A stretch of 34,078 nucleotides of DNA from Candidatus Firestoneibacteriota bacterium (lineage in GTDB: Bacteria > Oederibacteriota > JAAXVQ01 > JAUVAV01), in the NCBI GenBank assembly GCA_030635415.1, contig DAOVYW010000001.1, positions 1-34,078 on the forward strand, read 5' to 3'. Positions 1-29,362 of this stretch are shown here, piece after piece. A program made the translations under genes and the position numbers. The notes beneath the pieces are model-generated. The model was not told the origin of the DNA, searched no databases, and worked only from the letters and a program-made list of their open reading frames with translations. Position 1 is the stretch's first letter, and every line of letters begins with the position of its first letter.

Positions 1-444
1 GGGTATCTTCTTGCAATGCTTCTTGGCGAACTGGAGCATTTCACGCAGCAGCGAAAGCGATCCTTCTCCCTTGGTCATCACTTTCCCATAGCACTCTAAT
101 AGCTCTCTGATCTGGCCAACGCTCCAGTTGTGCCAGTCGGAAAATCTGGTGCCGCCTGACTCCAGGTCCTTCTATTGGGAATAAGATGTCTTTTTCTGTT
201 TCCATCAGACCGCCCTTAGCATTCGTATTTGGGATATGAAATTCCGCTGGAATATGAGAAAATTAAAGTAGTGTCTTGACTGGGTGTCCACTAAATCAGG
301 GGAAGATCAGTGCGTCCCCTATTATTACCATTTATCAAGAGGCGAAAAGTGCCGAAAAGTGTAATTGGTTCGAGAACATATAAAGTTGCAACTCTGTTTA
401 TTATATTATGGGTATCGAATTATTCTTATCCCGGGAGCATAGGT

Positions 445-1350
445 ATGGCTAAAACAAAAATGTCTGATCAAGGATTAAGAACTGAATTGCGAGGGAATGA
501 AAATAAGCAAGAATTATATATAGCTGAAGGTTTTGATAATAATTTTCATTTTATAACGCTAGCTGATAAAAATGAATATCGAGTATTAAAAAGTGTAGAT
601 TTTGGCCGTTGGTTCACTATTGAAGACAAATATAATAATAAATACATTATTAAGAGAAGATTAAGAGAGCTTGCTAGAAGTGGCATGGGGTTGCATGTTT
701 TAAAACCAGGAGAGTTTATGATAACCGATATTTCTTTTCTTGACGGCACCTGGTATGTTATGCCGAAATTGAGAGAGCAGCATGCTGAACCTATGCAGTT
801 TAAAATTACCGGAAATTATACAATTACGAAAAAGGATCTGGAATATGAACACCTATTAATTGAAAATAAAATCCCCTCCGTGAATACCAAAACTAATTCT
901 CTGCTTATATCTTTTTCTCTTGCCTGTATGAAATTGTTAACCAAAGAAATCGATTATACATCTCCGGAGGCGCAACTCCCGGCAAATTTGTATATCCGAA
1001 TTCCCGAAAAACTGGAGGTCCTGGCTCATCCGCAATCATTCGCATGGGAACTGCCAATGCATATAATAAATCGGGGAGAGCAAATATTAAAATGGCAAGG
1101 TAAATCCGATGCTGCCTGGCTAACGATTGGACCCTCTGACGGCAGGGTTAAAAATGACGGAGAGTTTTTTGCTAATTGCAAAGTTAACGCCCAAGGACTT
1201 AAATCGGGCATTTATACTGGCAAGCTTAGAATTGAAGCAACCGCAGCTACCAATGCACCCAAAATAATAACCGTAAAATTAAAAATGTTAAAACCAAGTG
1301 ATCCTATCCCAGATTCGGAGCCGAAAATAATTAGATTAATAGAAAAATAA
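445..1350 (+). CDS. hypothetical protein (orphan) with C-terminal Ig-like/BACON-like beta domain
   Basis: The track ORF 310..1350 starts at GTG. The in-frame ATG at 445 is preceded by GGGAG (433-437) and is the more plausible start. No signal peptide. The last ~90 aa (AWLTIGPSDG...GLKSGIYTGKLRIEA...ITVKLKM) follow the W..S..G / G.Y.G.I.I / I.V.L pattern of BACON/Ig-like domains. The rest has no recognisable motif. The gene is visibly AT-richer than the housekeeping genes. Confidence 0.6.
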   Translation: MAKTKMSDQGLRTELRGNENKQELYIAEGFDNNFHFITLADKNEYRVLKSVDFGRWFTIEDKYNNKYIIKRRLRELARSGMGLHVLKPGEFMITDISFLDGTWYVMPKLREQHAEPMQFKITGNYTITKKDLEYEHLLIENKIPSVNTKTNSLLISFSLACMKLLTKEIDYTSPEAQLPANLYIRIPEKLEVLAHPQSFAWELPMHIINRGEQILKWQGKSDAAWLTIGPSDGRVKNDGEFFANCKVNAQGLKSGIYTGKLRIEATAATNAPKIITVKLKMLKPSDPIPDSEPKIIRLIEK

Positions 1351-5743: not shown

Positions 5744-6898
5744 ATGACGGATACTTCTAAATTTATTAGAGAAGCCAAAGCCTTCGAGTTTTATATAAAA
5801 ACCATTTGGCCCTGGAAACGTAAGTTGGTTAAAAGGTATTATTCCAAACGTTGCGTGCGTTGCACAGCTTCCGAACGGTATAGTCCCCTGGATGAACAAG
5901 GTATTTGTCGGTTATGCCGGGATGATAAGACCAGTACTGACAATAATAACCTTCCTCCCAGCGATATTCTTACTGAACAATTGCACCAGACCATGGCTTC
6001 ATATGTGGGCAAGGGTCAAGGGGATCATGATGCCTTAGTGCTGGTTAGTGGTGGTAAAGACAGCAGCTATATGGTCCATCGATTACATGAAGAGCATCCC
6101 AAGTTGCGGCTATTAACCTATACCCATCATAATGGTTTTATGAGTTCAGTGGCACTGGATAATGTGCAACAAGTAATCGGCAAGCTTGGCGTAGACCATT
6201 TTTTTTATCGCCCTCGCATGAACTTTATGATTCGGCTCTTTCGTTATCAACTTACGCACTTGGGTCCCAATGGTGGTTATGGCACGGTTGATTATTCTGA
6301 TGGTGAATTGCTGCTTGATAGTTCCATGAATTTAGCGGTTAAACTTAAAATACCTTTGGTGATTTGCGGGTACTCACGTTACCAACTGCTTGATGGTTTT
6401 GGTTGTGATACCTTCTTGCTGCCTGACCAGCGTCGTTATAGTGATCGCAAGGAAATCGCCGGGAATGCTTTACAAGATATTTTTCCTAACGAAGGTGATC
6501 AAGCGATTTGGTGGCATGCCTCAAAGTGGAAAAAAGAACAAATTCCACAAATGGCATTTCCCCTGTTTGCTTGGGACTTGGCAGAAGAAGAGATCCGCGC
6601 TAAGGTGTTTCAACTGGGACTTTTAAAAGCAGGCATGGTTAGCCCGGTTCTGACTAACGCTGAGTACATTCCTGTGCTGGGCGTGGTAGATATCCATCGT
6701 GACGGGTATTCCAGCTTTGAACCTGAGTTTTCCCGCATGATTCGGGAAGGGAAAGCCAAAAAAGAAAACTGGCAATATATCTGGGAAGTGCTTGAATATA
6801 CTGCGCGAACCGGGAAACTGATTAGTGGTACGATTGATCAAACCCTGGCGCGGTTAGGGCTGAGCCGCCAAGACGTGGGGATTAAGTATCAAAAATAG
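5744..6898 (+). CDS. PP-loop ATP-pyrophosphatase family protein, N-acetyl-sugar amidotransferase-like (WbpG/WbuX-like)
   Basis: N-terminal zinc ribbon CVRC...GICRLC followed by the PP-loop LVSGGKDSSY. Length (384 aa) and motif order match the N-acetyl sugar amidotransferase family as I remember it. GGGGGAGG SD lies upstream of ATG 5744. Confidence 0.6.
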   Translation: MTDTSKFIREAKAFEFYIKTIWPWKRKLVKRYYSKRCVRCTASERYSPLDEQGICRLCRDDKTSTDNNNLPPSDILTEQLHQTMASYVGKGQGDHDALVLVSGGKDSSYMVHRLHEEHPKLRLLTYTHHNGFMSSVALDNVQQVIGKLGVDHFFYRPRMNFMIRLFRYQLTHLGPNGGYGTVDYSDGELLLDSSMNLAVKLKIPLVICGYSRYQLLDGFGCDTFLLPDQRRYSDRKEIAGNALQDIFPNEGDQAIWWHASKWKKEQIPQMAFPLFAWDLAEEEIRAKVFQLGLLKAGMVSPVLTNAEYIPVLGVVDIHRDGYSSFEPEFSRMIREGKAKKENWQYIWEVLEYTARTGKLISGTIDQTLARLGLSRQDVGIKYQK

Positions 6899-7008: not shown

Positions 7009-9378
7009 TTAGAATTTATAAGTATACCCGGCAGTTACCCGCACAATTCTTTCCCCTTTGATGTAATCGTCCTCCATGGTATTATCGGCCATGGCGTTCT
7101 CAAAAACATTAAACACCGCTAAGGTCAAGCTTAGGTCTTGATAAGTTCCGCCCACACTGATGTCATATTGACTCAGCCACTTGGTGTTTATCTTTGACAC
7201 ATTTTCCGAAGCAGTTATTGTTCCGGCTGTGCCAACCTGCCTAGGCGTGCGGCCAAAATGCGCATATAAATTAAGAAAAAAGAGATTTTCATAATTGAAA
7301 CCCAGCATGCTGTTGAATATATCCGCAACCCCTTCCGCCCAGGTGGGGTGTTGTGGTTTCATTCGTGAAGAAAGATTAAACCGGGTATAATTTACTTTAA
7401 ACTGAGTATAAGGGAGCGGACGAACCATACTTTCCAGCTCAAAGCCATGCGTAATGCGGCTGTTGGCATTAGACCAACTAACCATGGAAGGAGCTTGATT
7501 CAACAGCTTAGTAAATAATAATCCCGGAATAGGCGGTATCGATGAACTAATCAGACTTAGATCCGGAAAATAGACATATAAAGGGCCAAACTCATAATCA
7601 AATTGAATCTCATCCTGCGTTTCCCAGTAAAAATATCCGGCTTTTGCCTGGAACCATTTCCCGAATTGATATTCGATACTGGCCTCGCTCTGCTCGATCT
7701 TTTCCGGTTTTAAATCAGCATTACCCGTGACCTCATAAAATCCGTAATTACCTAAGGTGTAACGCTCCATGAAAACCGGTGAGCGGAAGGCACTGCCGTA
7801 TAAAGCCTTAAGGCGCAAGCCCGAAAGCGGAGAATAGATAATACTTCCGCGGGGACTGATATTGCTGCCATAAACCGTATTGTAGTCATACCGCACCCCG
7901 GCCAGAAGAATTAAATTATCCCGGGCATGATATTCATCCTGGAGATAAAGCGCGTAATTCTGGTCCGAGGCCTCATCAAAGGCAAAATACTCCCCCGCCG
8001 ACCAATCGTGAGTGAAACTCAGGCCGGCAATAAAATAATTGTTTTGCGGCCACGCCAGATCATACTGGACCTCAGCCAGTAATTCATTCAACGGGCCACG
8101 GGAAAATTGCCCTTCAACGAGAGCGGTCCCATCCGCCAATCGCATAAAATCATTCAAGCCAATATAATAACCGCCCACGGCCTGGGTGGGATCAAAGGAG
8201 ATATCGCCCATATCATCTACAATTACCATTACCCCTGGCGGCAAATCACTTATAGTGTCAATCTTAATGCGATCTAAAACATAAACAACCTGCTGGCCGG
8301 TGTTATTTATATAAGTGTCTTCCAACCGAAAACTTAGCTTGGACAACTCGCCTAAATCCAAATTATATTTGGTATCCAAATAAAAAGATTCTTCATGATT
8401 ACTATGTCTCGGAGTGGGGGTGTAAACACTGCCTATAAAAGGATCTTCCATTTTGTGATACCCGGCCCGCACCACCCAATCATCCTGGTACTTCAAGGCC
8501 AGATCGATCTTGTTGCCTTCAAACAGTTCATTGGGCTCTTCCCGGTTAACCGGATCAATACCCAGTTGCCGCCAGTAACCGGCGCTCACAGTACAATCAA
8601 TATCACCAAGCTTTTTTCCATAGTTCAGGAGATAATATTGCGACAGCTCGGCGTCACCTGGTTTGGACCCCAGGCTTAACTTGGTATTTGCGCCTTGGAT
8701 GTCTTTTCCGTCCTTAGTAATGATATTAATAACCCCGGCAAAAGCATTAGCCCCGTAGAGGGATGACCCCGGTCCTTTGACAATCTCGATTTGTTTGATA
8801 TTGTCTAAATTGTAACCGAAATGGGTGTTGAAATTGCCCCAATCAACAGTATTCACTTTGCGTCCATTGATTAAAACTAATATTTTGTTGTTATAAGAAT
8901 TCTGCATTCCCCGGAAACGCATGGTTTCAAAAAGACCATCATAGGAAATTTCCGTACCGGGAAAATGCAGCAAAAGTTCCTTCAGGGTTAAGGCGCCTTT
9001 TTCTCTGATTTCCTGCTCAGTAATAATTGTTACGCTGCCCGGCACTTCGGAAAGTTTCTGCAAACGCTTGGTGGCGGTCATGACCATAATCTCTTCACCA
9101 AAGAACATCAGCTCCATACTCGTTTCCGGAGATGACGCTTCCGAAGTGGTTTCACTTAGCTCACTCGCGTTTTCGGCAGGAGAGACAACTTCGGTTTCTT
9201 CAGTAGCCGGATTCTGAGGTGCAACTTGACTTGCCGCCGGGCTTTCCGGCGTTACAGCAGTTATTGGGGGCGCAACCGGGACGGATTCTTCCTGGGCCCG
9301 GACCGCACTCCAACTGAAACTTAAGCCCAAACCTAACATTAATGGCAACATCAACCTCAAACCCTGTATCCATTTCAT
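7009..9378 (-). CDS. TonB-dependent outer-membrane receptor
   Basis: Signal peptide MKWIQGLRLMLPLMLGLGLSFSWSAVRA. TonB-box-like EEIMVMTA. Plug motifs (VPGSVTIITEQEI, RFRGM, ILVLINGRKVN). NIITK/ANAFAGVINI beta-barrel start. C-terminal aromatic ...AGYTYKF. AGGAGGG SD. Confidence 0.93.
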   Translation of the reverse strand: MKWIQGLRLMLPLMLGLGLSFSWSAVRAQEESVPVAPPITAVTPESPAASQVAPQNPATEETEVVSPAENASELSETTSEASSPETSMELMFFGEEIMVMTATKRLQKLSEVPGSVTIITEQEIREKGALTLKELLLHFPGTEISYDGLFETMRFRGMQNSYNNKILVLINGRKVNTVDWGNFNTHFGYNLDNIKQIEIVKGPGSSLYGANAFAGVINIITKDGKDIQGANTKLSLGSKPGDAELSQYYLLNYGKKLGDIDCTVSAGYWRQLGIDPVNREEPNELFEGNKIDLALKYQDDWVVRAGYHKMEDPFIGSVYTPTPRHSNHEESFYLDTKYNLDLGELSKLSFRLEDTYINNTGQQVVYVLDRIKIDTISDLPPGVMVIVDDMGDISFDPTQAVGGYYIGLNDFMRLADGTALVEGQFSRGPLNELLAEVQYDLAWPQNNYFIAGLSFTHDWSAGEYFAFDEASDQNYALYLQDEYHARDNLILLAGVRYDYNTVYGSNISPRGSIIYSPLSGLRLKALYGSAFRSPVFMERYTLGNYGFYEVTGNADLKPEKIEQSEASIEYQFGKWFQAKAGYFYWETQDEIQFDYEFGPLYVYFPDLSLISSSIPPIPGLLFTKLLNQAPSMVSWSNANSRITHGFELESMVRPLPYTQFKVNYTRFNLSSRMKPQHPTWAEGVADIFNSMLGFNYENLFFLNLYAHFGRTPRQVGTAGTITASENVSKINTKWLSQYDISVGGTYQDLSLTLAVFNVFENAMADNTMEDDYIKGERIVRVTAGYTYKF

Positions 9379-9516
9379 CTTATAACCCTCCTTTTTATTT
9401 GGGCTATATCCAAGCAGTGGGGGTGAAAATTGGGAACCCTGAAAAAACCTGGTTTTAACAAAAGTTCGTAGTTGCCCACACTAATTGGAAAAGCTTTTTA
9501 TTGACCTTGCTTTATG

Positions 9517-9571
9517 ATTCTGCTGCAAAATCCCACTTGCTGTCATTGCGAGGAGCGACAGCGACGAAGCA
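9517..9571. repeat. palindromic repeat element, copy B (truncated: outer arm plus L-arm only)
   Basis: ATTCTGCTGCAAAATCCCACTTGCTGTCATTGCGAGGAGCGACAGCGACGAAGCA aligns with the left half of copy A. It is followed by an unrelated 7-bp hairpin AAGCATG...CATGCTT (9568-9592). Confidence 0.8.
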
Positions 9572-9646
9572 TGGCCTTTGAAATCATGCTTGCAAGATGC
9601 GTCTTTGTTTCCATGCCGTGGATTCCACTAAGGTCATGAATCATTA

Positions 9647-11017
9647 TTATGAATTTACCGCATGAGATTTTGGGTTCCATAAATTCTTTTTCCCGTGCCA
9701 AATAATGTGTATGTTCTTCCATTGCTTTTTATCAGGAAAACCATAAAATGTAATTATTGCGCCCTGACGATAGGTCAATCCCAGGGAGTTGCCCAGAATA
9801 ACCGGATCAATTGATTTAGCCGGGCTTAAAACATTAATCGCAATGGGACCTCGAATATCTATGGGTATAATTTTATCAACCCACTCCCAGGCTACTTTAT
9901 CGGCCAATAATTCACTGCTATTTTTGGGATAAATAACTGCTGCATAAGCACAATCAAAACCTGGTTTAGAATAATTTATAAAAATATCAATCGGTTCCAA
10001 TTCTGACAGGCGTTCAACAAATCCCAGCTCTTCGCCATGGGGATGCAGATTATGATAATGATAAGCAAGGTGCCATGAAGCCTGACGCACAATTTCCTGA
10101 TCATTATTATAACCAAGTTTAACCAGGATGGGTTCCAGTGCTTCTATTTTATCACGCCATTCAGTTGCCGCTGCGATAGCGATGTCTGTCCGATGCAAAT
10201 CTATAAGGCGCTGAATTAATCGCGCGCTGCCGGCAAAGAGCTCATGCGCGTAAAAATCAATGCCATTGAAATGTCGCAGTTCCGGTTCAGCCGATTTGCG
10301 TTGTTTGAGTATATCAAACATCCATTCAACCGGATATATTTCCGGATTTAATTCTTTTTTGATATTTTCAAAATCAAAACAAATCGCGCCCCAAAAAGGG
10401 CCGGCAATGCCGGGCCTTTCAATATCTTTTTGCTTAACCATGTCCATCATGCTGTCAAGCGGCGGCATTGATTCATCCTCGGCATAAAATTGTCCAATCT
10501 GATCGGCGGCATATGCTCTTACCATGAGATCATCATGATCCAGGAAACTTAATAATGAATCTTTGGCCTTGCTCCAGGTATGTCCGAAAACCTTTAAAAT
10601 AATTTTGGCAGTCAGTAAAGACGTCGCGCCTATTTTGGTTTTTTTGCCATGTTCTAATTCATCCAGCCATTGCAGGATCAAACTCCGGTAAGGTTTATCC
10701 TCTGCCATGATTTGGGTATGGTAACAAAAAGCTTCAATTATAAGGGGGATTTGCTCTCCTCTAAGTGCAATCGCTTTCAAGATGCCCGGAAGTCTTTGTT
10801 CCGGCAGTCCGGGTTTAAAATCCTTCTGCCGATATGCCTGCATCTTTTCCGCCCACAGAGCCTGGGCCGCTGTTTCTACTGCAAATCCAAGTATGTCAGG
10901 CGGTTCGTGCTTAATGGCTGCAACTAAGAGATTAAATATATCGCTCCATTCCGGTGCGGTATGAAATGAACTAAGGGTAATGTTGTTTAATTGATTTAAC
11001 CTAATATCATTCCTCAT
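9647..11017 (-). CDS. hypothetical cytoplasmic protein with HEAT/ARM-like repeats
   Basis: 456-aa ORF with no signal peptide. DDLMVRAYAADQIGQF and DQEIVRQASWHLAY resemble HEAT-repeat helices. The start codon overlaps the stop of the upstream gene (ATGA at 11014-11017). The function call is weak. Confidence 0.7.
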   Translation of the reverse strand: MRNDIRLNQLNNITLSSFHTAPEWSDIFNLLVAAIKHEPPDILGFAVETAAQALWAEKMQAYRQKDFKPGLPEQRLPGILKAIALRGEQIPLIIEAFCYHTQIMAEDKPYRSLILQWLDELEHGKKTKIGATSLLTAKIILKVFGHTWSKAKDSLLSFLDHDDLMVRAYAADQIGQFYAEDESMPPLDSMMDMVKQKDIERPGIAGPFWGAICFDFENIKKELNPEIYPVEWMFDILKQRKSAEPELRHFNGIDFYAHELFAGSARLIQRLIDLHRTDIAIAAATEWRDKIEALEPILVKLGYNNDQEIVRQASWHLAYHYHNLHPHGEELGFVERLSELEPIDIFINYSKPGFDCAYAAVIYPKNSSELLADKVAWEWVDKIIPIDIRGPIAINVLSPAKSIDPVILGNSLGLTYRQGAIITFYGFPDKKQWKNIHIIWHGKKNLWNPKSHAVNS

Positions 11018-12318
11018 CTTACATTCCTGATTCCCATAAAATTTTCCAGAATTTTCATACCGGCCGGATTTTCCGGCGATCTCTGTTCCGGATGAAATTG
11101 CACCCCATAGATTTCCTTGTTTTTATGTTTTATCATTTGCAATTGTGATGTCCGGCCTTTGATTAACAGTTCGAATTTCCGCGGCAAAGATTTGATTTCC
11201 TCACAATGTGAGACATAGACCTTGGGTTTGGCCGGTAATCCGGCCAGTATTTTATCCGGTTTTATAATTTTGGTTGCAATCATTCCTTCGGAGCGAAAAC
11301 AATTTTTATAAGCAGCAGGTTTGTGTTTCCCTTTGATCAATCCCACCTTGGCGCCGTAAGCCAAAGCAATAAGTTGATGGCCGCCGCAGATGCCCAACAC
11401 CGGAATCGTGGTGTTTTTAAGCAGCGTGAAAATAGCAGTCAGTTCCTCAGCGGCATACAAGTGCCAAGGCGTGGATTGGCCGGCAATAATAATGGTCCGG
11501 GGAGAAAGTTGTTTGATTTTTTCAATATCCGATTCAAGGTAGTGTAATACCACGGGCTGACATCGGAATTTCACATCCAGCGCGGCAATAATGGGGCTCA
11601 CCAATGACAGGTCGTTTTTATCCTTTTGGGGATTGATAATGACGATTTTGGGCAGAACCGAGGATATTTTTTTTCGCATAAAAGTAAGGGGATTGTAAAA
11701 TCTTTGCCGCAGCGCTTCGGTAGTCAGGGTGGCCCAACTGGCAACCCCGTAATCATCAAATTGTTTTCTTATTTCCAAATGCAAATGATCATAGTTTCCG
11801 CCCTGGGCTAAAGCTTCTTTCCGGGTGTACAGCCGTCCTAATTGGGAGTGCCGGGTGACCTGTTCCCCCTGGCTTAAATAAATACTTTCCAAATGCTTAT
11901 AAGCAGTATAGATCAATTGACCGTCCGGCAGCATATGCTTAACCACAATGGTTTTATGCGGATGGCCCAAGTGCACTGAGCACACGACTCCGTTGGCCAG
12001 AGGATAAACATAGATATGTTTTTCCATTGGCTTCTTCGGAATTATATCCAGGCCGGTATGAATATGCCCGGGGAGATAGGAGTTGCGGGGGGAACCGAAA
12101 ACACTGACCACTTGAATGGTTTTTATATCATTGCGGTTTTTGGTGGCAAAAGGAACAAACCACTGACCGGCCAGGGAGGCCGGTGTAAATTCCTGATGAA
12201 ATTCTTTCCAGCGCAGTTTGTCGTCATCAATATAATCCGCGCTGCCAGGTAAAGCTGTTGTCCCGCCCAGGATTAAAGCCAGCAAATAGAAAAGCCGCCA
12301 ATGTTTTAGTAGAGGCAT
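11014..12318 (-). CDS. exported fusion protein: M23/LytM metallopeptidase domain + class-I glutamine amidotransferase (C26-like) domain
   Basis: Signal peptide MPLLKHWRLFYLLALILGGTTALPGSA. M23 zinc ligands HTGLD (12046-12060) and HLHLE (aa 178-182). GATase1 nucleophile elbow GICGGHQ (Cys311, 11386-11388) and GVQFHPE (aa 405-411). GGGAGAA SD upstream of ATG 12318. Confidence 0.85.
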   Translation of the reverse strand: MPLLKHWRLFYLLALILGGTTALPGSADYIDDDKLRWKEFHQEFTPASLAGQWFVPFATKNRNDIKTIQVVSVFGSPRNSYLPGHIHTGLDIIPKKPMEKHIYVYPLANGVVCSVHLGHPHKTIVVKHMLPDGQLIYTAYKHLESIYLSQGEQVTRHSQLGRLYTRKEALAQGGNYDHLHLEIRKQFDDYGVASWATLTTEALRQRFYNPLTFMRKKISSVLPKIVIINPQKDKNDLSLVSPIIAALDVKFRCQPVVLHYLESDIEKIKQLSPRTIIIAGQSTPWHLYAAEELTAIFTLLKNTTIPVLGICGGHQLIALAYGAKVGLIKGKHKPAAYKNCFRSEGMIATKIIKPDKILAGLPAKPKVYVSHCEEIKSLPRKFELLIKGRTSQLQMIKHKNKEIYGVQFHPEQRSPENPAGMKILENFMGIRNVR

Positions 12319-12511
12319 AAATGTTCTCCCGCTGGATTTATCTCAGTGGCCGGTCAACCAAACTAATGATAGCGAAATTTTCAAGAAAAGACAAGTGGGT
12401 TTTTAGGAGAAGAGGACCGACTCATGAGCAGGCCGCAAGCAACGCTCTGGGTTATAGACACCACCACCCCATCAAGCCCTGAAAGGGCGAAACATCTCAA
12501 GGTAAAGTGTT

Positions 12512-12613
12512 ATGGCACAGTCATTATCCCGAATTATTCTTCACATCGTTTTCAGTACCCGGTCCGAGCGCGACCTCTTCAGAACGGGATTTTGTATTGA
12601 CGTGCGATTTTAA
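12512..12613 (+). pseudogene. 5' remnant of an IS200/IS605-type (REP-associated, RAYT-like) Y1 transposase gene
   Basis: ATG 12512 opens MAQSLSRIILHIVFSTRSERDLFRTGFCIDVRF*, ending at TAA 12611-12613. The first ~23 residues match my recollection of the characteristic N-terminus of RAYT/IS200-like transposases (M.QSLS.I..HIVFSTK.R). The frame stops before any HUH motif. It is out of frame with the track ORF that begins at 12507. Confidence 0.55.
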
Positions 12614-12626
12614 CCTTTGTTACAAT
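12597..12626 (+). promoter_or_regulatory. candidate sigma70 promoter of the A2M-pbpC operon (extended -10)
   Basis: TTGACG (12597-12602), an 18-nt spacer ending in TGT, then TACAAT (12621-12626). This is about 70 nt upstream of ATG 12696. Confidence 0.5.
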
Positions 12627-12695
12627 ATTATTATCATTTACCAACGCAATTTTCTATCAACGCCTATCAGCAATTCCCAAAGGGGGTTTAGGTTT

Positions 12696-18218: not shown

Positions 18219-20657
18219 TTGGGAAGATGCCGGAGCGTTATTATGCGGATGCCGGGAAAACTGTCGGCATTAAGGCGGAGAGTGCAGGGCCAACAGCTTG
18301 GTCTGATAAAAAAATGGAGAAACATACCCCACGGTATACGCTGGATCATGGGTATGGCGGCGGCGGGTATTTTTTGTTACGTGGTTATTCCGGTGCCAAA
18401 CCCGCTTTTTCCCAAAGATTACAGCCATGTAATCTTTGATGAAAGCCAGAAAATATTGCGGGTATTCTTAAATACTCAAGAACAATGGATACTGCCGCCG
18501 GATCCTCGAAAAGCCATTCCCCATAAATTAAAACAAGCGGTACTGAGCTATGAAGATAAAGATTTTTACCGCCATCGGGGAATCAGCCCTTCAGCGCTTA
18601 TGCGCGCGTTTTACCTGAACCTTCGCTATAAAAAAGTCATGAGCGGGGCGAGTACGCTTACTATGCAAGTGGCGCGCATGATGACTCCCAAATCCCGCAC
18701 CTACCCGAATAAACTATTGGAAATGGCCCAAACTCTAAAAATTGAAACCCACTACAGCAAGGATGAAATTCTCCGTTTATATTTAGACCATGCTCCTTAT
18801 GGCGGGAATATCAGAGGCTATCAAGCCGCGGCCTGGAAATACTTCGGCAAATCCGCGGAAGCATTAACCTGGGCAGAGGCTGCCACCCTGGCAGTGTTGC
18901 CAAACTCACCCGCCTTGATAACGCCGGTGGTTAACCGTCAAAAGTTAATCCGCAAACGAAATGTGGTATTGAAAACACTTTGGCGGCAAAAACATATAAA
19001 TCAATCCGCTTATGAGCTGGCCAGGGCTGAGCCGGCTCCGGGCAAAATATTACACTTCCCGGTAGCAGCGCCCCACGCCACCCGCTGGTTGATGAAGCGG
19101 CAGCCGGGGACTTTCAGAATCGAAACGACCTTGAATCGGGACATCCAGGCATTGTGCCGCGAAATTGTACGAAGACATACTTTGTATTTGCGACCTTATG
19201 GTATTAAGAACATTTGTTTGTTAGCGGCGGAAACTAAAACCGGTAAAGTTCGCGCCTATATTGGATCCCAGGATTTTCATGACCATAGTACGCAAGGCAA
19301 AGTGGATGGGGTACAGGCTCCCCGGTCTTCCGGCTCAATTTTAAAGCCGTTTTTATATGCTTTGGCGATGGATGAGGGGTTACTGTTACCGGATATGCAA
19401 ATGAAGGATATCCCCACACATTTTAAAGGGTTTTCTCCGCAAAATTACACGAAAATATTTCAGGGCGTAGTATCCGCCCGTGAAGCCCTGATTAAATCCC
19501 TTAATGTACCCGCAGTTCGTTTGCTGAATTATTATGGAGTATATTCATTCTGCTTTTTTTTGAAGAGCAGCGGAGTGCGCACCCTGTTTCGTGCGGCGGA
19601 GGAGTATGGTTTGGCATTGATTTTAGGTGGGGCGGAAGTGACCTTATGGGATATGGTTGCGCTCTACCGTGGCTTGGGACAGCAGGGACGATTTCAGCCA
19701 TTGCAGCTTCTAAAGGATGGGAGCAGGAGCAAGGCCGGGCCTGGTCAGTTAATCCATCCCGCTTCGTGTCATCTGGTGTTGGACATACTCAAAGCAGTGA
19801 AAAGGCCGGGGAGTGAATATTATTGGGAGCAATTTAATAATCAACGTCCGATCGCCTGGAAAACCGGAACCAGCTATGGCAGCCGGGATGCCTGGGCAAT
19901 TGGTACGAGTCCGCAGTGGACAATAGGTGTATGGGTGGGGAATTTCACGGGAGAAGGCAATGCGAATTTGTCAGGCGCGCGCTGTGCCGGGCCATTGTTG
20001 TTTGACTGTTTTAATGCCTTGCCCCATAAGCCGGGAAAAACCTGGTTTGAAGAACCGGTTAATCAATTCACCAGTTGCGAAATTTGCCGGCATACCGGAT
20101 TTATGGCGGCAGAAAATTGTCCGGATACTAAAATGATGCTTATTCCCTGGCACCATAAGCCTTTCCGGCGCTGTCCGTACCATAAAGTATACTATATGGA
20201 TAAAAATAAAACCCACACAGTTTGTTCACGTTGTTGGGACTCAAATAACCACTCCAAAGAAGTGCGGTTAGTCTATCCGCCGAATATTATGCATTTTATG
20301 CGCAAACAAGGGCACAGAATTAGTAAAATCCCGCCGCACAACCCTAAATGTCCGTCAATTAATACCGACCAAGCCATGGATGTAGTATATCCTTTGGAAA
20401 GAGCTAAAATCTGGATACCTCGCGGTTTGGATGAGAAATTACAAAAACTCATTATTCAAGTGACCCACCGTGATCGTCAATGCCGGATATTTTGGTATCT
20501 GGATGGGAAATATATTGGTGAGACCAGGGACCGGCATGATAAAGCTATTCAGACTACTACCGGTTGGCATACAGTGGAAGTTGTTGATGAAAATGGGGAA
20601 CAGATTAAACGGCGTTTTCAAATCGTCATCCGCGGCAAAAATGCGGAATCAAAATAA
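18219..20657 (+). CDS. pbpC: penicillin-binding protein 1C (bifunctional glycosyltransferase/transpeptidase)
   Basis: N-terminal TM anchor. GT51 motifs EDKDFYRHRG (18552-18581) and GASTLTMQ. Transpeptidase motifs SILK (19335-19346), SLN and KTGTS. C-terminal PbpC-type beta domain (IFWYLDGKYIGE...). The start is uncertain: TTG 18219, ATG 18243 or ATG 18249. It begins 6-36 nt after the A2M stop. Confidence 0.93.
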   Translation: MGRCRSVIMRMPGKLSALRRRVQGQQLGLIKKWRNIPHGIRWIMGMAAAGIFCYVVIPVPNPLFPKDYSHVIFDESQKILRVFLNTQEQWILPPDPRKAIPHKLKQAVLSYEDKDFYRHRGISPSALMRAFYLNLRYKKVMSGASTLTMQVARMMTPKSRTYPNKLLEMAQTLKIETHYSKDEILRLYLDHAPYGGNIRGYQAAAWKYFGKSAEALTWAEAATLAVLPNSPALITPVVNRQKLIRKRNVVLKTLWRQKHINQSAYELARAEPAPGKILHFPVAAPHATRWLMKRQPGTFRIETTLNRDIQALCREIVRRHTLYLRPYGIKNICLLAAETKTGKVRAYIGSQDFHDHSTQGKVDGVQAPRSSGSILKPFLYALAMDEGLLLPDMQMKDIPTHFKGFSPQNYTKIFQGVVSAREALIKSLNVPAVRLLNYYGVYSFCFFLKSSGVRTLFRAAEEYGLALILGGAEVTLWDMVALYRGLGQQGRFQPLQLLKDGSRSKAGPGQLIHPASCHLVLDILKAVKRPGSEYYWEQFNNQRPIAWKTGTSYGSRDAWAIGTSPQWTIGVWVGNFTGEGNANLSGARCAGPLLFDCFNALPHKPGKTWFEEPVNQFTSCEICRHTGFMAAENCPDTKMMLIPWHHKPFRRCPYHKVYYMDKNKTHTVCSRCWDSNNHSKEVRLVYPPNIMHFMRKQGHRISKIPPHNPKCPSINTDQAMDVVYPLERAKIWIPRGLDEKLQKLIIQVTHRDRQCRIFWYLDGKYIGETRDRHDKAIQTTTGWHTVEVVDENGEQIKRRFQIVIRGKNAESK

Positions 20658-22136: not shown

Positions 22137-22694
22137 TTAATTTTCCAGAGAGAAAACATAGGGAATACGAATTTTAACCGGTGCGTTTTGGTCCATAATT
22201 CTGGCCGGTTTAAAGCTTGATTTTTTTAGAGCCGCCATGGCAGCCTGGTCAAAATGCTTGCCGCCACTTTTCAAAACCCGTACCTGCCGCACCAAACCTT
22301 GGGCATCAATATAGGCTTCCAGGATTACCCGGCTGGTTCGGCCGGATTTCCGGGCTTTTTCCGGGTAAACCGGGATAACCCGGGTTTTAAAAACCGGAAG
22401 CAGTTCAACTTTATAAAAAGGCAGGAATATTTGTTTTTTCGGCGCCGGAGGGAGGGAGGCTTTTTGTTCGACTATCTCTTCAGCCGGCGCATCATCGGTT
22501 TTTTTCACGATTTCACGGGGCTTAGGAGGAGCAGGGATATCTTCCGAAAAGTCCATCAATTCAATCGTGGTTTGCAGAGGCCGGAGACGGTTGCCCGGGA
22601 CATGCATTTTAAAAGCAAAGAGCAAACTTAGGTGAATTGCCGCCGAGACGACCAGGGTAATCCGCAGCTTGTTTTCATAATTCCACCTAGTCAT
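22137..22694 (-). CDS. tonB: energy transducer TonB
   Basis: N-terminal TM anchor, a Pro-rich spacer (PAPPKPREIV...PPAPKK) and a TonB C-terminal domain (PVYPEKARKSGRTSRVILEAYIDAQGLVRQVRVLKS...). The start overlaps the exbD stop by 8 nt. Confidence 0.9.
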   Translation of the reverse strand: MTRWNYENKLRITLVVSAAIHLSLLFAFKMHVPGNRLRPLQTTIELMDFSEDIPAPPKPREIVKKTDDAPAEEIVEQKASLPPAPKKQIFLPFYKVELLPVFKTRVIPVYPEKARKSGRTSRVILEAYIDAQGLVRQVRVLKSGGKHFDQAAMAALKKSSFKPARIMDQNAPVKIRIPYVFSLEN

Positions 22695-23103
22695 GAATTC
22701 CCGCTTGCGGAGCTTCCCGGCAGATCAAGGTCACTTTCTCAAAGGCCTGGGCTTTCAGAGCGGTCAGGACCTCATCGATTTTTTCGAAATCACATTCCGC
22801 GTCGGCATAGAGGGATACTTGTTCTTTAGGAAGGGAGAGCCGGGTCAGTAAAGCGGTTATGTCTTTCAGGTAACCCGGCTCCTCATTAACCGCAATATAT
22901 CCGGAAGAATCCAGATAAATCCGCGTGCCTTTTTTCACTTTGACTTCGGCCGTGTTCGGCACCTGAGGCGGAGCCACTTGCAGGGGCGGCGAGGGAGCAA
23001 GGAGTGATGACAGGAGCATGAATATCAGGAGCAGGAAAGCTATGTCCGACATACTAGCCACGGGAATGATACTCACGATACGGTAACTATTATTAAGTTT
23101 CAT
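22687..23103 (-). CDS. exbD: biopolymer transport protein ExbD/TolR (second copy)
   Basis: IPVASMSDIAFLLLIFMLL TM signature. 138 aa. ATGA overlap with the upstream exbD. Confidence 0.9.
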   Translation of the reverse strand: MKLNNSYRIVSIIPVASMSDIAFLLLIFMLLSSLLAPSPPLQVAPPQVPNTAEVKVKKGTRIYLDSSGYIAVNEEPGYLKDITALLTRLSLPKEQVSLYADAECDFEKIDEVLTALKAQAFEKVTLICREAPQAGIHD

Positions 23104-23501
23104 GGCCTCTGCTTTTTTAAGGATATTTTATCAAAGCCGTTGCGCTTAAATTGCTCGATTACCAGGACCGCGGTTTTGTATTGGCTTTTGGCATGAGCCT
23201 GGATGGCGACGAATTGGCGGTTGCGGGACACGGGTTGAGAGAGATAATCGCCTAACTCTTCCAGTGAAACCGAGTCCCCATTTAATTTAAGCGAGTTATC
23301 CCTGGAAATTCGCAGCTCAATAATTTTTTGGTCCGAAACTTTTAAAGGTGGTTTATCCTTATCCGGAAGTCTAAGCGATAATCCCGTCTCCAGGGAGAAT
23401 ACAGCCACAATCATGAAAAAGACAATAAGCAGAAAGGCAATGTCGGACATGGAGGCTACCGGGATTTCCGATGATATTTGGGCCAGACGCTTGATTTTCA
23501 T
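23100..23501 (-). CDS. exbD: biopolymer transport protein ExbD/TolR (first copy)
   Basis: MKIKRLAQISSEIPVASMSDIAFLLIVFFMIV signature. The track ORF extends to a TTG at 23546. ATG 23501 gives the usual N-terminal length, but neither start has a clear SD. Confidence 0.85.
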   Translation of the reverse strand: MKIKRLAQISSEIPVASMSDIAFLLIVFFMIVAVFSLETGLSLRLPDKDKPPLKVSDQKIIELRISRDNSLKLNGDSVSLEELGDYLSQPVSRNRQFVAIQAHAKSQYKTAVLVIEQFKRNGFDKISLKKQRP

Positions 23502-23564
23502 GATGGGGCCGCCCTGGGGCCGGTCACTATTGGCAGGCCTTGACAAACGGCCGGCTTGTCACGA

Positions 23565-24260
23565 TTAATCAAGGGTTTCCAGAAATTCATTAGCCAGTTC
23601 CTCGCAGGTTTTTGTAAAGTTGCTGATCTTATGAACAAAGTAGTTGTAAGCGGAGATGGTGATGATAGCGATGATCAATCCAAAAGCGGTTGTGATCAGG
23701 GCCTCGAAAATACCGCCCGCCACCATACGCGCGTTGACCTGGTCGGCATTGGCAATCGTTCGAAAGGCGTTGATCATGCCGGAAACCGTGCCCAGGAATC
23801 CGGTGAGCGGAGCCAGGCTGCCAATGGAGGAGAGTACATTCAAACCGCGCTCCAGCCGGGAGATGACCACTCCCAGTTTAGCCGCGATGATTTTCTCGAC
23901 TTTTTCGCTCTCTCCCTGCCGTTTGGAATTGGCAAAAGCCATGATATGCATCAAATCATTTTTAGGATGCTTTTCCGCCCAATCTTCAAGTTGCCTGCTG
24001 CTTTCGCCTTTTTTAAAGTTTTCAATAAAATCGCCGACATCTTTCTCGATCCCGAATTTATGCTGGGAAAAATGCCAGAAACGCTCCAAAATGTAAGCCA
24101 GGGAGATAATGGCAAAAACCAGTAGGATCCACATAAAGGGTCCGCCCAGATCAAAAAGCGCGAAAAGGGAGAACCCGGAAGTGTTGCTGGTCAGAGCCCA
24201 TGCCGGGGCGGTAAAAATAAAGAAGGTTATCAGTAATTGAAGGCCTATTTTAAGCAGCAT
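23565..24260 (-). CDS. exbB: MotA/TolQ/ExbB proton-channel protein
   Basis: Three TM segments and the conserved LAPLTGFLGTVSGMINAF motif. AAGGAG SD upstream of ATG 24260. First gene of the exbB-exbD-exbD-tonB operon. Confidence 0.92.
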   Translation of the reverse strand: MLLKIGLQLLITFFIFTAPAWALTSNTSGFSLFALFDLGGPFMWILLVFAIISLAYILERFWHFSQHKFGIEKDVGDFIENFKKGESSRQLEDWAEKHPKNDLMHIMAFANSKRQGESEKVEKIIAAKLGVVISRLERGLNVLSSIGSLAPLTGFLGTVSGMINAFRTIANADQVNARMVAGGIFEALITTAFGLIIAIITISAYNYFVHKISNFTKTCEELANEFLETLD

Positions 24261-26786: not shown

Positions 26787-26927
26787 TATAATTCTGCGGC
26801 GTAATATTATGACCACGTGAGCGGCCGCGATAATCGGTGGTAGATCCACCTTTTATAAGGATTGAAAAACAGCACCCCGTATTAGTGTATGGAAAAAATC
26901 CGGCAAAGAGTGCATTCGGAGAAAAGC

Positions 26928-28058: not shown

Positions 28059-28089
28059 ATCGTACCGACGTTAGAGTAGGAGGTTATTC

Positions 28090-29346: not shown

Positions 29347-29362
29347 AACAGAGGCGGAAATA

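What the first reader, a model, noticed from the sequence alone, without database searches (positions are those of the whole stretch)
9647..12318. Exported M23 peptidase fused to a class-I glutamine-amidotransferase fold, translationally coupled to a HEAT-like partner
The 434-aa product of 11014-12318 has three parts.
- A Sec-type signal peptide.
- A complete LytM/M23 zinc site: HTGLD at 12046-12060, and HLHLE.
- A complete class-I GATase catalytic context: GICGGHQ with Cys at 11386-11388, and GVQFHPE.

Class-I GATase modules are normally cytoplasmic ammonia donors, so an exported one attached to a murein endopeptidase domain is odd. It makes more sense as a peptidase-C26-type gamma-glutamyl hydrolase. 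That would make a two-headed cell-wall hydrolase able to attack both peptide cross-links and the gamma-D-Glu linkage of stem peptides.

Its stop overlaps (ATGA) the start of a signal-less 456-aa HEAT-like protein, which suggests stoichiometric co-production of a chaperone, inhibitor or immunity partner. A TonB-dependent receptor follows on the same strand. The block is divergent from the A2M-PBP1C periplasm-protection operon across a 377-bp shared control region. Together these look like one envelope maintenance/defence neighbourhood. I do not recognise this fusion-plus-partner arrangement as a described system.
Basis: partly seen in the sequence, partly recalled or inferred. Interest (0 to 1): 0.7.

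Follow-up and report, generated by a model that had tools for sequence, protein, structure and literature searches.

The report
Exported M23 peptidase–amidotransferase-fold fusion enzyme
This is a real but rare secreted enzyme that joins a cell-wall-cutting zinc peptidase to a normally cytoplasmic glutamine-amidotransferase-type domain. The neighbouring "partner" gene is a chance neighbour found beside it only in this one organism.

Summary
Window 11014-12318 (- strand) encodes a 434-aa protein with three parts:
- an N-terminal signal-like hydrophobic segment;
- a divergent but catalytically complete M23 domain (H87/D91, H142, H178/H180);
- a complete class-I GATase domain (C311/H409/E411).

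All of these residues are invariant in 8 homologues at 42-99% identity, and the AlphaFold model is confident (pLDDT 93.7, pTM 0.84). The ATGA overlap with the 456-aa helical-repeat gene is also real.

The system-level reading fails. The HEAT-like gene lies beside the fusion only in this species. Five other lineages of the fusion have unrelated downstream genes, including 85-89% identical orthologues from the same candidate phylum (FCPU426). The HEAT-like family sits alone in unrelated contexts, and the protein has no signal peptide. The A2M-PBP1C and TonB-receptor neighbours are not conserved either.

The GATase half is closest in sequence and fold to archaeal GMP-synthase subunit A, not to classical C26 enzymes. 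It nevertheless belongs to a small clade that is mostly exported. That clade is repeatedly fused to peptidase domains: M23, degenerate M23, NlpC/P60 and M19. It is also fused to a Pfam caspase (Peptidase_C14) domain.

The best reading is a stand-alone secreted two-headed hydrolase. Its second head is a Cys-His-Glu amidohydrolase working on a glutaminyl or gamma-glutamyl amide. The substrate is unknown.

The parts
11014..12318 (-). Gene for the 434-aa exported M23-GATase fusion protein. This is the only conserved unit.
   Evidence: ORF, translation, Pfam. Eight full-length homologues at 42-99% identity. AlphaFold2 pLDDT 93.7, pTM 0.84.
12238..12318 (-). Residues 1-27: signal-peptide-like N-terminus, with a likely cleavage after PGSA.
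   Evidence: Direct reading. Hydrophobic N-termini are conserved in all full-length homologues and in the stand-alone M23 relatives, followed by a conserved mature start A-D-Y-I. Heuristic only; SignalP was not run.
11665..12237 (-). Residues 28-218: M23 (LytM-type) zinc metallopeptidase module. It carries HxxxD (H87, D91; 12046-12060), YKH (H142) and HLH (H178, H180; 11779-11787), plus family-specific N- and C-terminal helices.
   Evidence: Pfam PF01551 35.8 bits, above its cut-off. All five residues are invariant in alignments A2 and A5. The module exists alone as 210-223-aa secreted proteins at 47-62% identity. Weak PDB profile hits to SpoIIQ, M23 peptidase 6jmx and ShyA.
11029..11655 (-). 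Residues 222-430: class-I (triad) glutamine-amidotransferase-fold domain. Cys311 is at 11386-11388, and His409 to Glu411 at 11086-11094.
   Evidence: Pfam PF00117 E 1.6e-23. The triad is invariant. PDB profile search finds GMP synthase subunit A at E 6.6e-31. Foldseek TM 0.85 to M. jannaschii and 0.81-0.82 to P. horikoshii GATase subunits. NCBIfam GuaA models score far below their cut-offs.
9647..11017 (-). 456-aa helical-repeat (ARM/HEAT-like) plus C-terminal alpha/beta-domain protein without a signal peptide. It overlaps the fusion's stop (ATGA) and is a lineage-specific neighbour, not a conserved partner.
   Evidence: Found beside the fusion only in the window and its 99% twin L008.
7009..9378 (-). 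TonB-dependent receptor, 268 nt downstream of the HEAT-like gene. It is a neighbour only.
   Evidence: Pfam Plug plus beta-barrel. tblastn finds it near the fusion only in L008.
12319..12695 (.). Divergent intergenic region between the fusion gene and the A2M gene. It has a GGAG-like ribosome-binding site 7-13 nt before the fusion's ATG and a promoter-like match at 12394-12366 on the - strand.
   Evidence: These are consensus matches only.

Best explanation
The gene encodes a stand-alone secreted (periplasmic or surface) two-headed hydrolase of a candidate-division FCPU426 bacterium.

Head 1 is a catalytically intact M23/LytM zinc endopeptidase module. Elsewhere this module occurs as a small secreted enzyme, or fused to NlpC/P60 or to YkuD domains. 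That company implies a peptidoglycan-peptide substrate.

Head 2 is a GuaA-subunit-A-like class-I GATase domain with an intact Cys-His-Glu triad. Outside the cytoplasm it has no ATP and no synthase partner, so it can only act as a thiol amidohydrolase. It would form a gamma-glutamyl thioester on Cys311 and release either ammonia (glutaminase or deamidase activity) or an amine or peptide (gamma-glutamyl peptidase activity).

My preferred reading is that the M23 head releases or binds cell-wall peptides, and the GATase head then processes a glutaminyl or gamma-glutamyl amide in the freed material.

Shown here: the domain content, the conservation of both active sites, the export signals across the clade, the recurrent peptidase fusions, and the absence of any conserved neighbour.

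Inferred: that the M23 head cuts peptidoglycan, that the GATase head is active, and what its substrate is.

The overlapping HEAT-like gene is probably co-transcribed in this one species, but it is not part of the conserved unit.
For: - Both domains score above Pfam's cut-offs.
- H87, D91, H142, H178, H180 and C311, H409, E411 are invariant in 8 fusions at 42-99% identity.
- The two-domain model is confident: pLDDT 93.7, pTM 0.84.
- The GATase fold matches GuaA subunit A at TM 0.85 and at E 6.6e-31 by sequence profile. It still fails the GuaA equivalog cut-offs: 103 bits against 198, and 102 against 172.
- GuaA-type GATases need an ATP/XMP-loaded ATPPase to be activated (PMC10526850). That is impossible outside the cytoplasm.
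- 107 of 168 GATase-only relatives with complete N-termini carry a hydrophobic N-terminal segment plus an extension. Lipoboxes (P0016, P0018, P0028, P0052) and a TAT signal (P0051) are visible.
- The same GATase clade is fused to degenerate M23 (P0016, P0021, P0052, L033), SH3+NlpC/P60 (P0042, L039), M19 dipeptidase (P0072, P0239) and caspase-like C14 (P0228, P0229).
- The same M23 module is fused to NlpC/P60 (P0013, P0014, Myxococcota loci) and to a second M23 plus YkuD (P0186).
- One 52% homologue sits beside an SH3-YkuD-DUF1287 protein and a Peptidase_M74-like protein.
- No conserved neighbour exists in any other lineage.
Against: - No biochemical data exist for any member of either sub-family, and the literature searches found none.
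- The acidic residue that aligns with the D of the SHMD motif in the P. horikoshii GATase is kept as an invariant Glu (SHCEE). From my own knowledge of GuaA-type structures, that residue contacts the free alpha-amino group of glutamine. This favours free Gln or an N-terminally free gamma-glutamyl group over the N-acylated gamma-D-Glu of an intact stem peptide.
- The contexts of exported GATase-only relatives are heterogeneous and not cell-wall related.
- About a third of the clade looks cytoplasmic.
- The M23 Pfam score is only just above its cut-off, and PDB matches to the module are weak.
- The signal-peptide call is heuristic.
Confidence: 0.6

Rival explanations
1. First reader's model. The fusion and the overlapping HEAT-like protein form a dedicated two-gene system, made in fixed ratio, of enzyme plus chaperone, inhibitor or immunity protein. 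Together with the TonB receptor and A2M-PBP1C they form an envelope-defence neighbourhood.
For: The ATGA overlap with an AGGA ribosome-binding site is real. The same arrangement is present on a second contig, L008, at 99% identity.
Against: - L008 is the same species, so it is not independent evidence.
- The 89% orthologues (L013, L093) are followed by a DEAD-box helicase, and the 85% orthologue (L014) by a convergent ORF.
- The sequence right after the stop of the 85-86% copy L005 does not align to the HEAT gene.
- The 49-55% homologues are followed by a restriction-modification system, a YkuD protein or a flavodoxin-like gene.
- tblastn with the HEAT-like protein against all fetched loci hits only L008 and its own family's loci.
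- 63 HEAT-like family clusters lie in unrelated contexts in Deltaproteobacteria, Mycobacterium, cyanobacteria and others, with no M23 or GATase nearby.
- The protein has no signal peptide, so it cannot inhibit a periplasmic enzyme. There is no PADLOC hit.
Confidence: 0.06
2. The GATase head is simply a periplasmic glutaminase that converts free L-Gln to Glu and NH3, for nitrogen scavenging or pH control. It was fused to an M23 domain that acts independently or merely tethers it to the wall. In this model there is no coupled action on peptidoglycan peptides.
For: - The closest sequence and fold relatives are true glutamine-hydrolysing GuaA subunits.
- The invariant Q315 of GICGGHQ and E373 of SHCEE fit a substrate with a free alpha-amino acid moiety (residue roles are from my own knowledge).
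- In several relatives the M23 domain has lost its zinc ligands while the triad is kept (P0016, P0021, P0052). This suggests M23 can serve as a binding module.
- Distant cytoplasmic relatives sit beside proB/proA-like genes, which concern glutamate metabolism.
Against: - In the 8 true fusions the M23 zinc and catalytic residues are all invariant, which argues for an active peptidase.
- Recurrent fusion of this GATase clade to catalytic peptidases (NlpC/P60, M19, C14) is hard to explain for an enzyme acting on a free amino acid.
- The proBA adjacency is confined to one related group of taxa and may be plain synteny. The window's own obg-proB-proA-nadD cluster has no such gene.
Confidence: 0.2
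3. The protein is an offensive lysin secreted to attack the walls of other bacteria (competition or predation), not a housekeeping autolysin.
For: - The gene sits in a different place even between 85-89% orthologues, which is accessory-gene behaviour.
- The M23 module fused to NlpC/P60 is found in Myxococcota, which are known predators (lifestyle from general knowledge).
- Distribution across phyla is patchy.
Against: - There is no adjacent immunity gene, secretion-system gene or toxin-delivery domain in any locus.
- There are no phage relatives.
- This rival concerns biological role, not mechanism, and is compatible with the best explanation.
Confidence: 0.12
4. The fusion is an assembly or frameshift artefact that joins two separate genes.
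For: None found.
Against: The continuous ORF is found in at least 8 clusters from independent assemblies and sources (NCBI, ENA, JGI, Logan) at 42-99% identity, with the same junction. The model is confident across the linker.
Confidence: 0.01

Closest known systems
GMP synthase subunit A (archaeal two-subunit GuaA GATase; PDB 2d7j/1wl8, 7d97/8gr3)
   Same: It is the best sequence and fold match to residues about 222-430: profile E 6.6e-31, Foldseek TM 0.85, 28-33% identity. It shares the same compact class-I triad fold and the motifs GxCxGxQ, SHxD/E and GVQFHPE.
   Different: It scores at about half the NCBIfam equivalog cut-offs. It is exported behind a signal peptide and an M23 domain, with no ATPPase partner gene. 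It carries clade-specific motifs (GQxTPW in place of GGP, and SHCEE). GuaA GATases are inactive without the ATP/XMP-loaded synthetase.
Peptidase C26 / gamma-glutamyl hydrolase type class-I GATase-fold hydrolases (PuuD, SpuA 7d4r, Lin1909 3fij, plant GGP1 9k7i, eukaryotic folate gamma-glutamyl hydrolase)
   Same: These are stand-alone Cys-His hydrolases of the same fold that cleave gamma-glutamyl amides without a synthase. Eukaryotic GGH is secreted or lysosomal (my knowledge), which is a precedent for this fold working outside the cytosol. Pfam PF07722 is above its cut-off (33.1 against 20.5 bits). NCBI names the 89% homologue 'gamma-glutamyl-gamma-aminobutyrate hydrolase family protein'.
   Different: Only the C-terminal half of the C26 profile matches. 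Sequence and fold similarity are much weaker than to GuaA subunit A: 3fij E 2.6e-6, 9k7i E 3.2e-4, SpuA TM 0.64 at rank 50.
M23/LytM peptidoglycan endopeptidases (LytM, lysostaphin, MepM, ShyA, Campylobacter/Helicobacter shape-determining M23 enzymes)
   Same: It has the HxxxD, YxH and HxH motifs, an extracytoplasmic location and a beta-rich fold.
   Different: It belongs to a divergent sub-family (best PDB E about 1e-3). It has its own N-terminal helix and a conserved C-terminal DDYGVASW...RF.DP helical extension. No LysM, SH3 or coiled-coil targeting domain is present; a GATase domain follows instead.
Multi-domain cell-wall hydrolases that combine two catalytic heads (for example M23+NlpC/P60 or CHAP+amidase lysins)
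   Same: It follows the same two-active-site, one-polypeptide logic. Direct relatives of this M23 module carry NlpC/P60 or YkuD as the second head.
   Different: Here the second head is a class-I GATase fold. No study of that fold as a cell-wall enzyme turned up in my literature searches.

Membership tests
Peptidase M23 (LytM-type metallopeptidase) | Profile match above the curated threshold | tested here: met
   PF01551 scores 35.8 bits against a cut-off of 28.7, E 9.1e-9, residues 86-186.
Peptidase M23 (LytM-type metallopeptidase) | Zinc ligands HxxxD and HxH, plus the catalytic His | tested here: met
   H87-x3-D91, H142 (YKHL), H178-L-H180. All are invariant in 8 fusions and 15 module homologues.
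Peptidase M23 (LytM-type metallopeptidase) | Extracytoplasmic location | tested here: inconclusive
   The N-terminal segment is signal-peptide-like and conserved across homologues. This is heuristic only, with no SignalP run and no experiment.
Peptidase M23 (LytM-type metallopeptidase) | Hydrolysis of peptidoglycan peptide bonds | not testable with these tools
   This needs a sacculus or muropeptide digestion.
Class-I (triad) glutamine amidotransferase | Fold and profile match | tested here: met
   PF00117 scores 83.8 bits against 22.8. Foldseek TM 0.85 to the MjGATase subunit.
Class-I (triad) glutamine amidotransferase | Cys-His-Glu catalytic triad | tested here: met
   C311 (GICGGHQ), H409 and E411 (FHPE) are invariant.
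Class-I (triad) glutamine amidotransferase | A coupled synthase/acceptor domain or subunit that receives the ammonia | tested here: not met
   No synthase domain is present in the protein, and none is found within 5-8 kb in any of the fusion loci. Export rules out ATP-dependent partners. It therefore has the GATase fold but is not an amidotransferase in function.
GMP synthase subunit A (GuaAA) | Equivalog-level score | tested here: not met
   NF001975 scores 103.4 against a cut-off of 198. TIGR00888 scores 102.5 against 172.15.
Peptidase C26 (gamma-glutamyl hydrolase / PuuD type) | Profile match and closest relatives within the family | tested here: inconclusive
   PF07722 scores 33.1 bits against 20.5, but covers only profile positions 102-219. 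PDB relatives of C26 type score far below GuaA-type ones.
Peptidase C26 (gamma-glutamyl hydrolase / PuuD type) | Hydrolysis of a gamma-glutamyl amide without a synthase | not testable with these tools
   Inferred from export and the absence of a partner. It needs an enzyme assay.
Two-gene enzyme/partner (immunity, inhibitor or chaperone) module with the HEAT-like protein | Conserved adjacency of the two genes across lineages | tested here: not met
   None of 5 other fusion lineages with readable downstream DNA carry it. The HEAT-like gene is found only in L008, the same species. HEAT-family loci lack M23 and GATase genes.
Two-gene enzyme/partner (immunity, inhibitor or chaperone) module with the HEAT-like protein | Partner located in the same compartment as the enzyme | tested here: not met
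   The 456-aa protein has no N-terminal hydrophobic segment.

The most novel reading that the evidence does not exclude
The GuaA-like GATase domain defines an unrecognised family of extracytoplasmic Cys-His-Glu amidohydrolases that act on peptidoglycan peptides. Candidate reactions are cleavage of the gamma-D-Glu-diamino-acid bond, or de-amidation of iso-glutamine or amidated diaminopimelate. On this reading the family has been recruited repeatedly as a second catalytic head next to M23, NlpC/P60 and M19 domains. It would be a new class of cell-wall hydrolase built on an 'ammonia-donor' fold.
Probability: 0.3. Interest if true: 0.7.

Novelty: new variant of a known kind. Interest (0 to 1): 0.45.

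Why it matters
Class-I glutamine amidotransferase domains are usually described as cytoplasmic ammonia donors wired to a synthase. This GuaA-like version has a full catalytic triad, sits behind a signal peptide and is welded to an active M23 peptidase. It belongs to a clade that is about two-thirds exported and is repeatedly fused to peptidases.

If the domain acts on wall peptides, it adds a new catalytic fold to the set of peptidoglycan hydrolases. It would also give a handle on wall remodelling or wall attack in uncultured phyla such as FCPU426, Spirochaetota, Armatimonadota and Myxococcota.

If it is only a periplasmic glutaminase, it is still an unusual route of nitrogen or glutamate handling.

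The negative result also matters.

Tried and rejected
- **HEAT-like partner.** I looked for it next to every fusion homologue, using look-up of encoding contigs on P0001-P0008, P0016 and P0310, the genome and metagenome scans, and tblastn over all fetched loci. It is found only in the same species.
- **The 455-aa protein upstream in L005.** I tested whether it was a displaced HEAT-like gene. It is not.
- **Split genes.** I checked whether M23-only loci carry a separate GATase gene nearby. There is none within 5-8 kb.
- **Conserved neighbours.** Clustering of flanking ORFs gave nothing for the fusions, the M23-only genes or the exported GATase genes. Only a proBA-like synteny appeared, in distant Verrucomicrobiota/Kiritimatiellia relatives.
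- **Phage origin.** No relatives in viral contigs.
- **Defence-system models.** No PADLOC hits.
- **Fold search of the HEAT-like model.** Only generic ARM/HEAT solenoids at E of 2.6e-3 or weaker, and nothing for its C-terminal domain.
- **Literature.** Searches for M23-GATase fusions, exported class-I GATases, and C26 enzymes with peptidoglycan found nothing relevant. The Francisella paper gives only an analogy: periplasmic GGT and ChaC.
- **Promoter and terminator scan.** Uninformative.
- **Model geometry.** I could not inspect model coordinates, so the relative positions of the two active sites were not analysed.


Full report
**1. What is in the sequence**

The ORF table and translations confirm three consecutive genes on the - strand:
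- 11014-12318, 434 aa
- 9647-11017, 456 aa
- 7009-9378, 789 aa

- HTGLD at 12046-12060
- the Cys codon of GICGGHQ at 11386-11388
- HLHLE at residues 178-182
- GVQFHPE at residues 405-411

The stop of the first gene overlaps the start of the second as ATGA (11014-11017), with an AGGA about 9 nt upstream.

Pfam gives these matches for the 434-aa protein:

| Model | E-value | Residues | Note |
|---|---|---|---|
| GATase PF00117 | 1.6e-23 | 251-427 | |
| Peptidase_M23 PF01551 | 9.1e-9 | 86-186 | 35.8 bits, cut-off 28.7 |
| Peptidase_C26 PF07722 | 6.1e-8 | 301-411 | C-terminal half of the profile only |

The N-terminus (MPLLKHWR / LFYLLALILGG / TTALPGSA|DY) has the n-, h- and c-region layout of a Sec signal peptide. 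I could not run SignalP, so this stays a heuristic call.

The neighbours are a TonB-dependent receptor and, divergently, a bacterial alpha-2-macroglobulin followed by PBP1C. The 377-bp gap corresponds to the A2M start called on a sister contig.

**2. The fusion is real and under selection**

A search of 5.8 billion proteins found full-length fusions P0001-P0008 at 99, 86, 55, 53, 52, 51, 52 and 44% identity. They come from NCBI, ENA, JGI and Logan assemblies.

In their alignment every catalytic residue is invariant:
- M23: H87, D91, H142, H178, H180
- GATase: C311, H409, E411

AlphaFold2 with a 69-sequence alignment gives pLDDT 93.7 and pTM 0.84 for the whole two-domain chain. A frameshift or assembly artefact is excluded.

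The architecture is rare:
- Among 1.84 billion 50%-identity representatives, only one (P0004) covers the whole profile.
- Among 185,579 GTDB species genomes, only two carry it, and both are 'candidate division FCPU426' MAGs at 89% and 85% identity. This also identifies the window's organism.
- The JGI metagenome scan returned one full fusion among 45 loci.
- There are no phage relatives.

**3. The proposed partner and neighbourhood are not conserved**

The window's arrangement (A2M-PBP1C, divergent fusion, HEAT-like gene, TonB receptor) recurs only on L008. That contig is 99% identical and so is the same species.

Other lineages of the fusion look different:

| Locus | Identity | Downstream of the fusion | Other context |
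|---|---|---|---|
| L013, L093 | 89% | DEAD-box helicase | 2331-aa protein upstream in L013 |
| L005, L014 | 85-86% | convergent 274-aa ORF (L014) | PorV upstream (L005) |
| L004 | 55% | restriction-modification pair | |
| L001-L003 | 52% | SH3-YkuD-DUF1287 protein, then a Peptidase_M74-like protein | |
| L006 | 49-51% | flavodoxin-like gene | |

- L093 comes from the same metagenome sample as L008.
- In L005 the DNA right after the stop no longer aligns with the window.
- The cluster in L001-L003 is the only neighbourhood that points to the cell wall.

tblastn with the HEAT-like protein against all fetched loci hits only L008 and that family's own loci.

The HEAT-like family itself has 63 clusters. 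Named members come from Deltaproteobacteria MAGs, Mycobacterium bourgelatii, a cyanobacterium and a Thermoanaerobaculia MAG. It lies in unrelated contexts, with no M23 or GATase gene nearby.

Its model is an alpha-solenoid (residues 1-331) plus an alpha/beta domain (334-456). The only fold matches are weak, generic ARM/HEAT hits. It has no signal peptide, so it could not inhibit or protect against a mature periplasmic enzyme.

The ATGA overlap probably means co-transcription in this one species, but there is no evidence of a functional pair.

**4. What kind of GATase is this?**

By sequence profile against the PDB, the best relatives are archaeal GMP synthase subunit A (2d7j at E 6.6e-31, 1wl8, 7yc6, 2lxn). 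TrpG/PabA types follow. C26-type proteins are far behind (Lin1909 3fij at 2.6e-6, GGP1 9k7i at 3.2e-4).

Foldseek agrees. The top-ranked M. jannaschii GATase subunits match at TM 0.85, at 28-29% identity; the P. horikoshii subunits follow at TM 0.81-0.82 and 32-33%. The C26-type SpuA appears only at rank 50 with TM 0.64.

The domain nevertheless scores at about half the NCBIfam equivalog cut-offs for GuaA. It also carries clade-specific motifs: GQxTPW where GuaA has GGP, and SHCEE[IV]K.

So it has the compact GuaA-type fold, yet it is neither a GuaA orthologue nor a typical C26 enzyme.

**5. The closest relatives are mostly exported and fused to peptidases**

The nearest GATase-only proteins (33-43% identity) carry lipoprotein signals, Sec-like signals or a TAT signal:
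- lipoprotein signals, for example P0018 (…IILFSC), P0028 and L041
- a TAT signal in P0051 (Pfam TAT_signal)

These are seen.

With a simple hydrophobicity rule, 107 of 168 GATase-only relatives with complete N-termini have a hydrophobic N-terminal segment plus an N-terminal extension. The remainder, about 220 aa long, look cytoplasmic.

The same GATase clade is fused to:
- degenerate M23 domains that have lost the zinc ligands (P0016, P0021, P0052, L033)
- SH3+NlpC/P60 (P0042, L039)
- M19 membrane dipeptidase (P0072, P0088, P0239)
- caspase-like C14 domains (P0228, P0229)
- itself, in tandem (P0189, P0197, P0201, P0214)

Independently, the M23 module (residues 1-220) occurs in three forms:
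- on its own, as 210-223-aa secreted proteins at 47-62% identity in Spirochaetes, Ignavibacteria-related MAGs, Kapabacteria, Bacteroidales and others
- fused to NlpC/P60 in Myxococcota (P0013, P0014, L025, L027, L029; the Pfam match is weak but the DCQG...H motif is visible)
- fused to a second M23 plus a YkuD L,D-transpeptidase domain (P0186)

Taken together, the M23 module pairs with GATase, NlpC/P60 or YkuD, and the GATase clade pairs with M23, NlpC/P60 or M19. This is the strongest indirect evidence that the GATase domain acts on peptides related to the cell wall.

**6. Mechanism**

Shown here:
- two intact active sites in one exported chain
- no conserved partner gene

From published knowledge: GuaA-type GATase units are inactive or weakly active until an ATP/XMP-loaded ATPPase activates them (PMC10526850). 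Outside the cytoplasm neither ATP nor a synthase is available.

Inference: the domain must work as a constitutive thiol amidohydrolase. Cys311 would attack a glutaminyl or gamma-glutamyl amide and form a gamma-glutamyl thioester. Either ammonia or an amine/peptide leaves, and water then releases the glutamyl product.

The invariant Gln315 (GICGGHQ) and Glu373 (SHCEE) bear on the substrate. Glu373 aligns with the D of SHMD in the P. horikoshii enzyme. From my own knowledge of GuaA-type structures, these positions hold the alpha-carboxylate and alpha-amino groups of glutamine. That would favour one of two substrates:
- free Gln
- an N-terminally free gamma-glutamyl group, such as gamma-Glu-X, or iE-DAP-like fragments if D-stereochemistry is tolerated

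It counts against the N-acylated gamma-D-Glu inside an intact stem peptide. I could not inspect the model's pocket.

My preferred model (confidence about 0.6 for the general statement) is a stand-alone secreted two-headed hydrolase. The M23 head cuts peptidoglycan cross-links or stems. The GATase head processes a glutamyl or glutaminyl amide in the released material.

The simpler rival, a periplasmic glutaminase tethered by an M23 domain, remains plausible (about 0.2). Whether the enzyme serves the producer's own wall or attacks other cells is open. The variable genomic position even among 85-89% orthologues hints at an accessory role.

**7. Comparison with known families**

- It is a member of Peptidase M23 by profile and motifs.
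- It has the class-I GATase fold and triad, but fails the functional criterion of an amidotransferase because there is no acceptor synthase.
- It is not a GuaA orthologue.
- C26 membership is inconclusive.
- Functionally it most resembles C26-type gamma-glutamyl hydrolases. Eukaryotic GGH is a secreted or lysosomal example of this fold working outside the cytosol (my knowledge).
- In architecture it resembles two-headed lysins.
- Public annotation of homologues is by similarity only: 'peptidoglycan DD-metalloendopeptidase family protein', 'gamma-glutamyl-gamma-aminobutyrate hydrolase family protein', and 'GMP synthase-like glutamine amidotransferase/murein DD-endopeptidase MepM'.
- I found no study of such a fusion or of exported bacterial class-I GATases in the searchable literature.

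**8. Verdict**

The exported hydrolase idea is reasonable and gains support from the clade's export signals and peptidase fusions.
- The partner and neighbourhood 'system' is refuted by lack of conservation.
- The specific gamma-D-Glu cleavage is untested and somewhat disfavoured by the conserved alpha-amino-binding residue.
- Novelty: a new variant of known kinds, namely a rare domain combination plus an uncharacterised, mostly exported GATase sub-family.
- Interest is moderate at 0.45. The system-level claim collapses, but the exported, peptidase-associated GATase clade is an unexpected and testable lead.

Noticed in passing
window 12507 (or 12696)-18212 and 18219-20657, + strand: This is a classic bacterial alpha-2-macroglobulin plus PBP1C gene pair, with the full set of bMG/A2M/TED domains and Transgly+Transpeptidase+BiPBP_C. 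The A2M start is ambiguous: GTG at 12507, or the start called on the sister contig at 12696.
   Followed up: partly
window 22137-24260, - strand: An ExbB - ExbD - ExbD - TonB gene cluster (231, 148, 138 and 185 aa). It probably energises the TonB-dependent receptor at 7009-9378.
   Followed up: no
window 5744-6898, + strand: A 384-aa PP-loop protein with a partial match to WbuX-type N-acetyl-sugar amidotransferase (TIGR03573, 75.8 bits, far below its cut-off). It converges on the TonB receptor gene. Function unclear.
   Followed up: no
window 25497-29962, + strand: An Obg GTPase - ProB (AA_kinase+PUA) - ProA-like aldehyde dehydrogenase - NadD-like cytidylyltransferase cluster. This is ordinary housekeeping synteny.
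   Followed up: no
L055, L060-L087 (Verrucomicrobiota/Kiritimatiellia loci), around positions 8000-10700: Distant, about 30% identical, signal-less 220-aa relatives of the GATase domain are consistently followed by amino-acid-kinase (ProB-like) and aldehyde-dehydrogenase (ProA-like) genes. This may link the clade to glutamate metabolism, or it may just be synteny among related taxa.
   Followed up: partly
L001 9403-12589 (also L002, L003): Downstream of a 52% fusion homologue lies a small cell-wall cluster: an SH3-YkuD-DUF1287 protein, a 248-aa protein with a weak AmiA-like match, and a Peptidase_M74-like protein.
   Followed up: partly
L013 589-7584 and 11233-12645; L093 10233-11576: Next to the 89% orthologue lie a 2331-aa protein with no Pfam match and a 470-aa protein with eCIS_core plus a transglutaminase-like (TGL) domain. 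This hints at a contractile-injection-system-type effector.
   Followed up: no
P0189, P0197, P0201, P0214, P0228, P0229 (proteins): Relatives of the GATase domain occur as tandem double or triple GATase proteins with signal-like N-termini, and fused to caspase-like Peptidase_C14 domains. These architectures are unusual for this fold.
   Followed up: partly
window 9647-11017 and family P0122-P0183: The HEAT-like protein belongs to an uncharacterised family of about 450-490 aa. It has strongly conserved motifs (EIERPGIAGPF, NGIDFxAHE, WHLAYHY, IIWHG) and a patchy distribution, with named members from Deltaproteobacteria and Thermoanaerobaculia MAGs, a cyanobacterium and Mycobacterium bourgelatii. 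Its C-terminal alpha/beta domain has no PDB fold match.
   Followed up: partly
L008 and L093 (both from ENA sample ERZ23498528): Two FCPU426 populations in one sample carry the fusion gene in different genomic contexts. One has the HEAT-like gene and TonB receptor downstream; the other has a DEAD-box helicase. This indicates recent rearrangement around the gene.
   Followed up: partly
window 310-1350, + strand: A 346-aa ORF with a BACON_2 domain match at E 9.6e-6, just above its cut-off.
   Followed up: no
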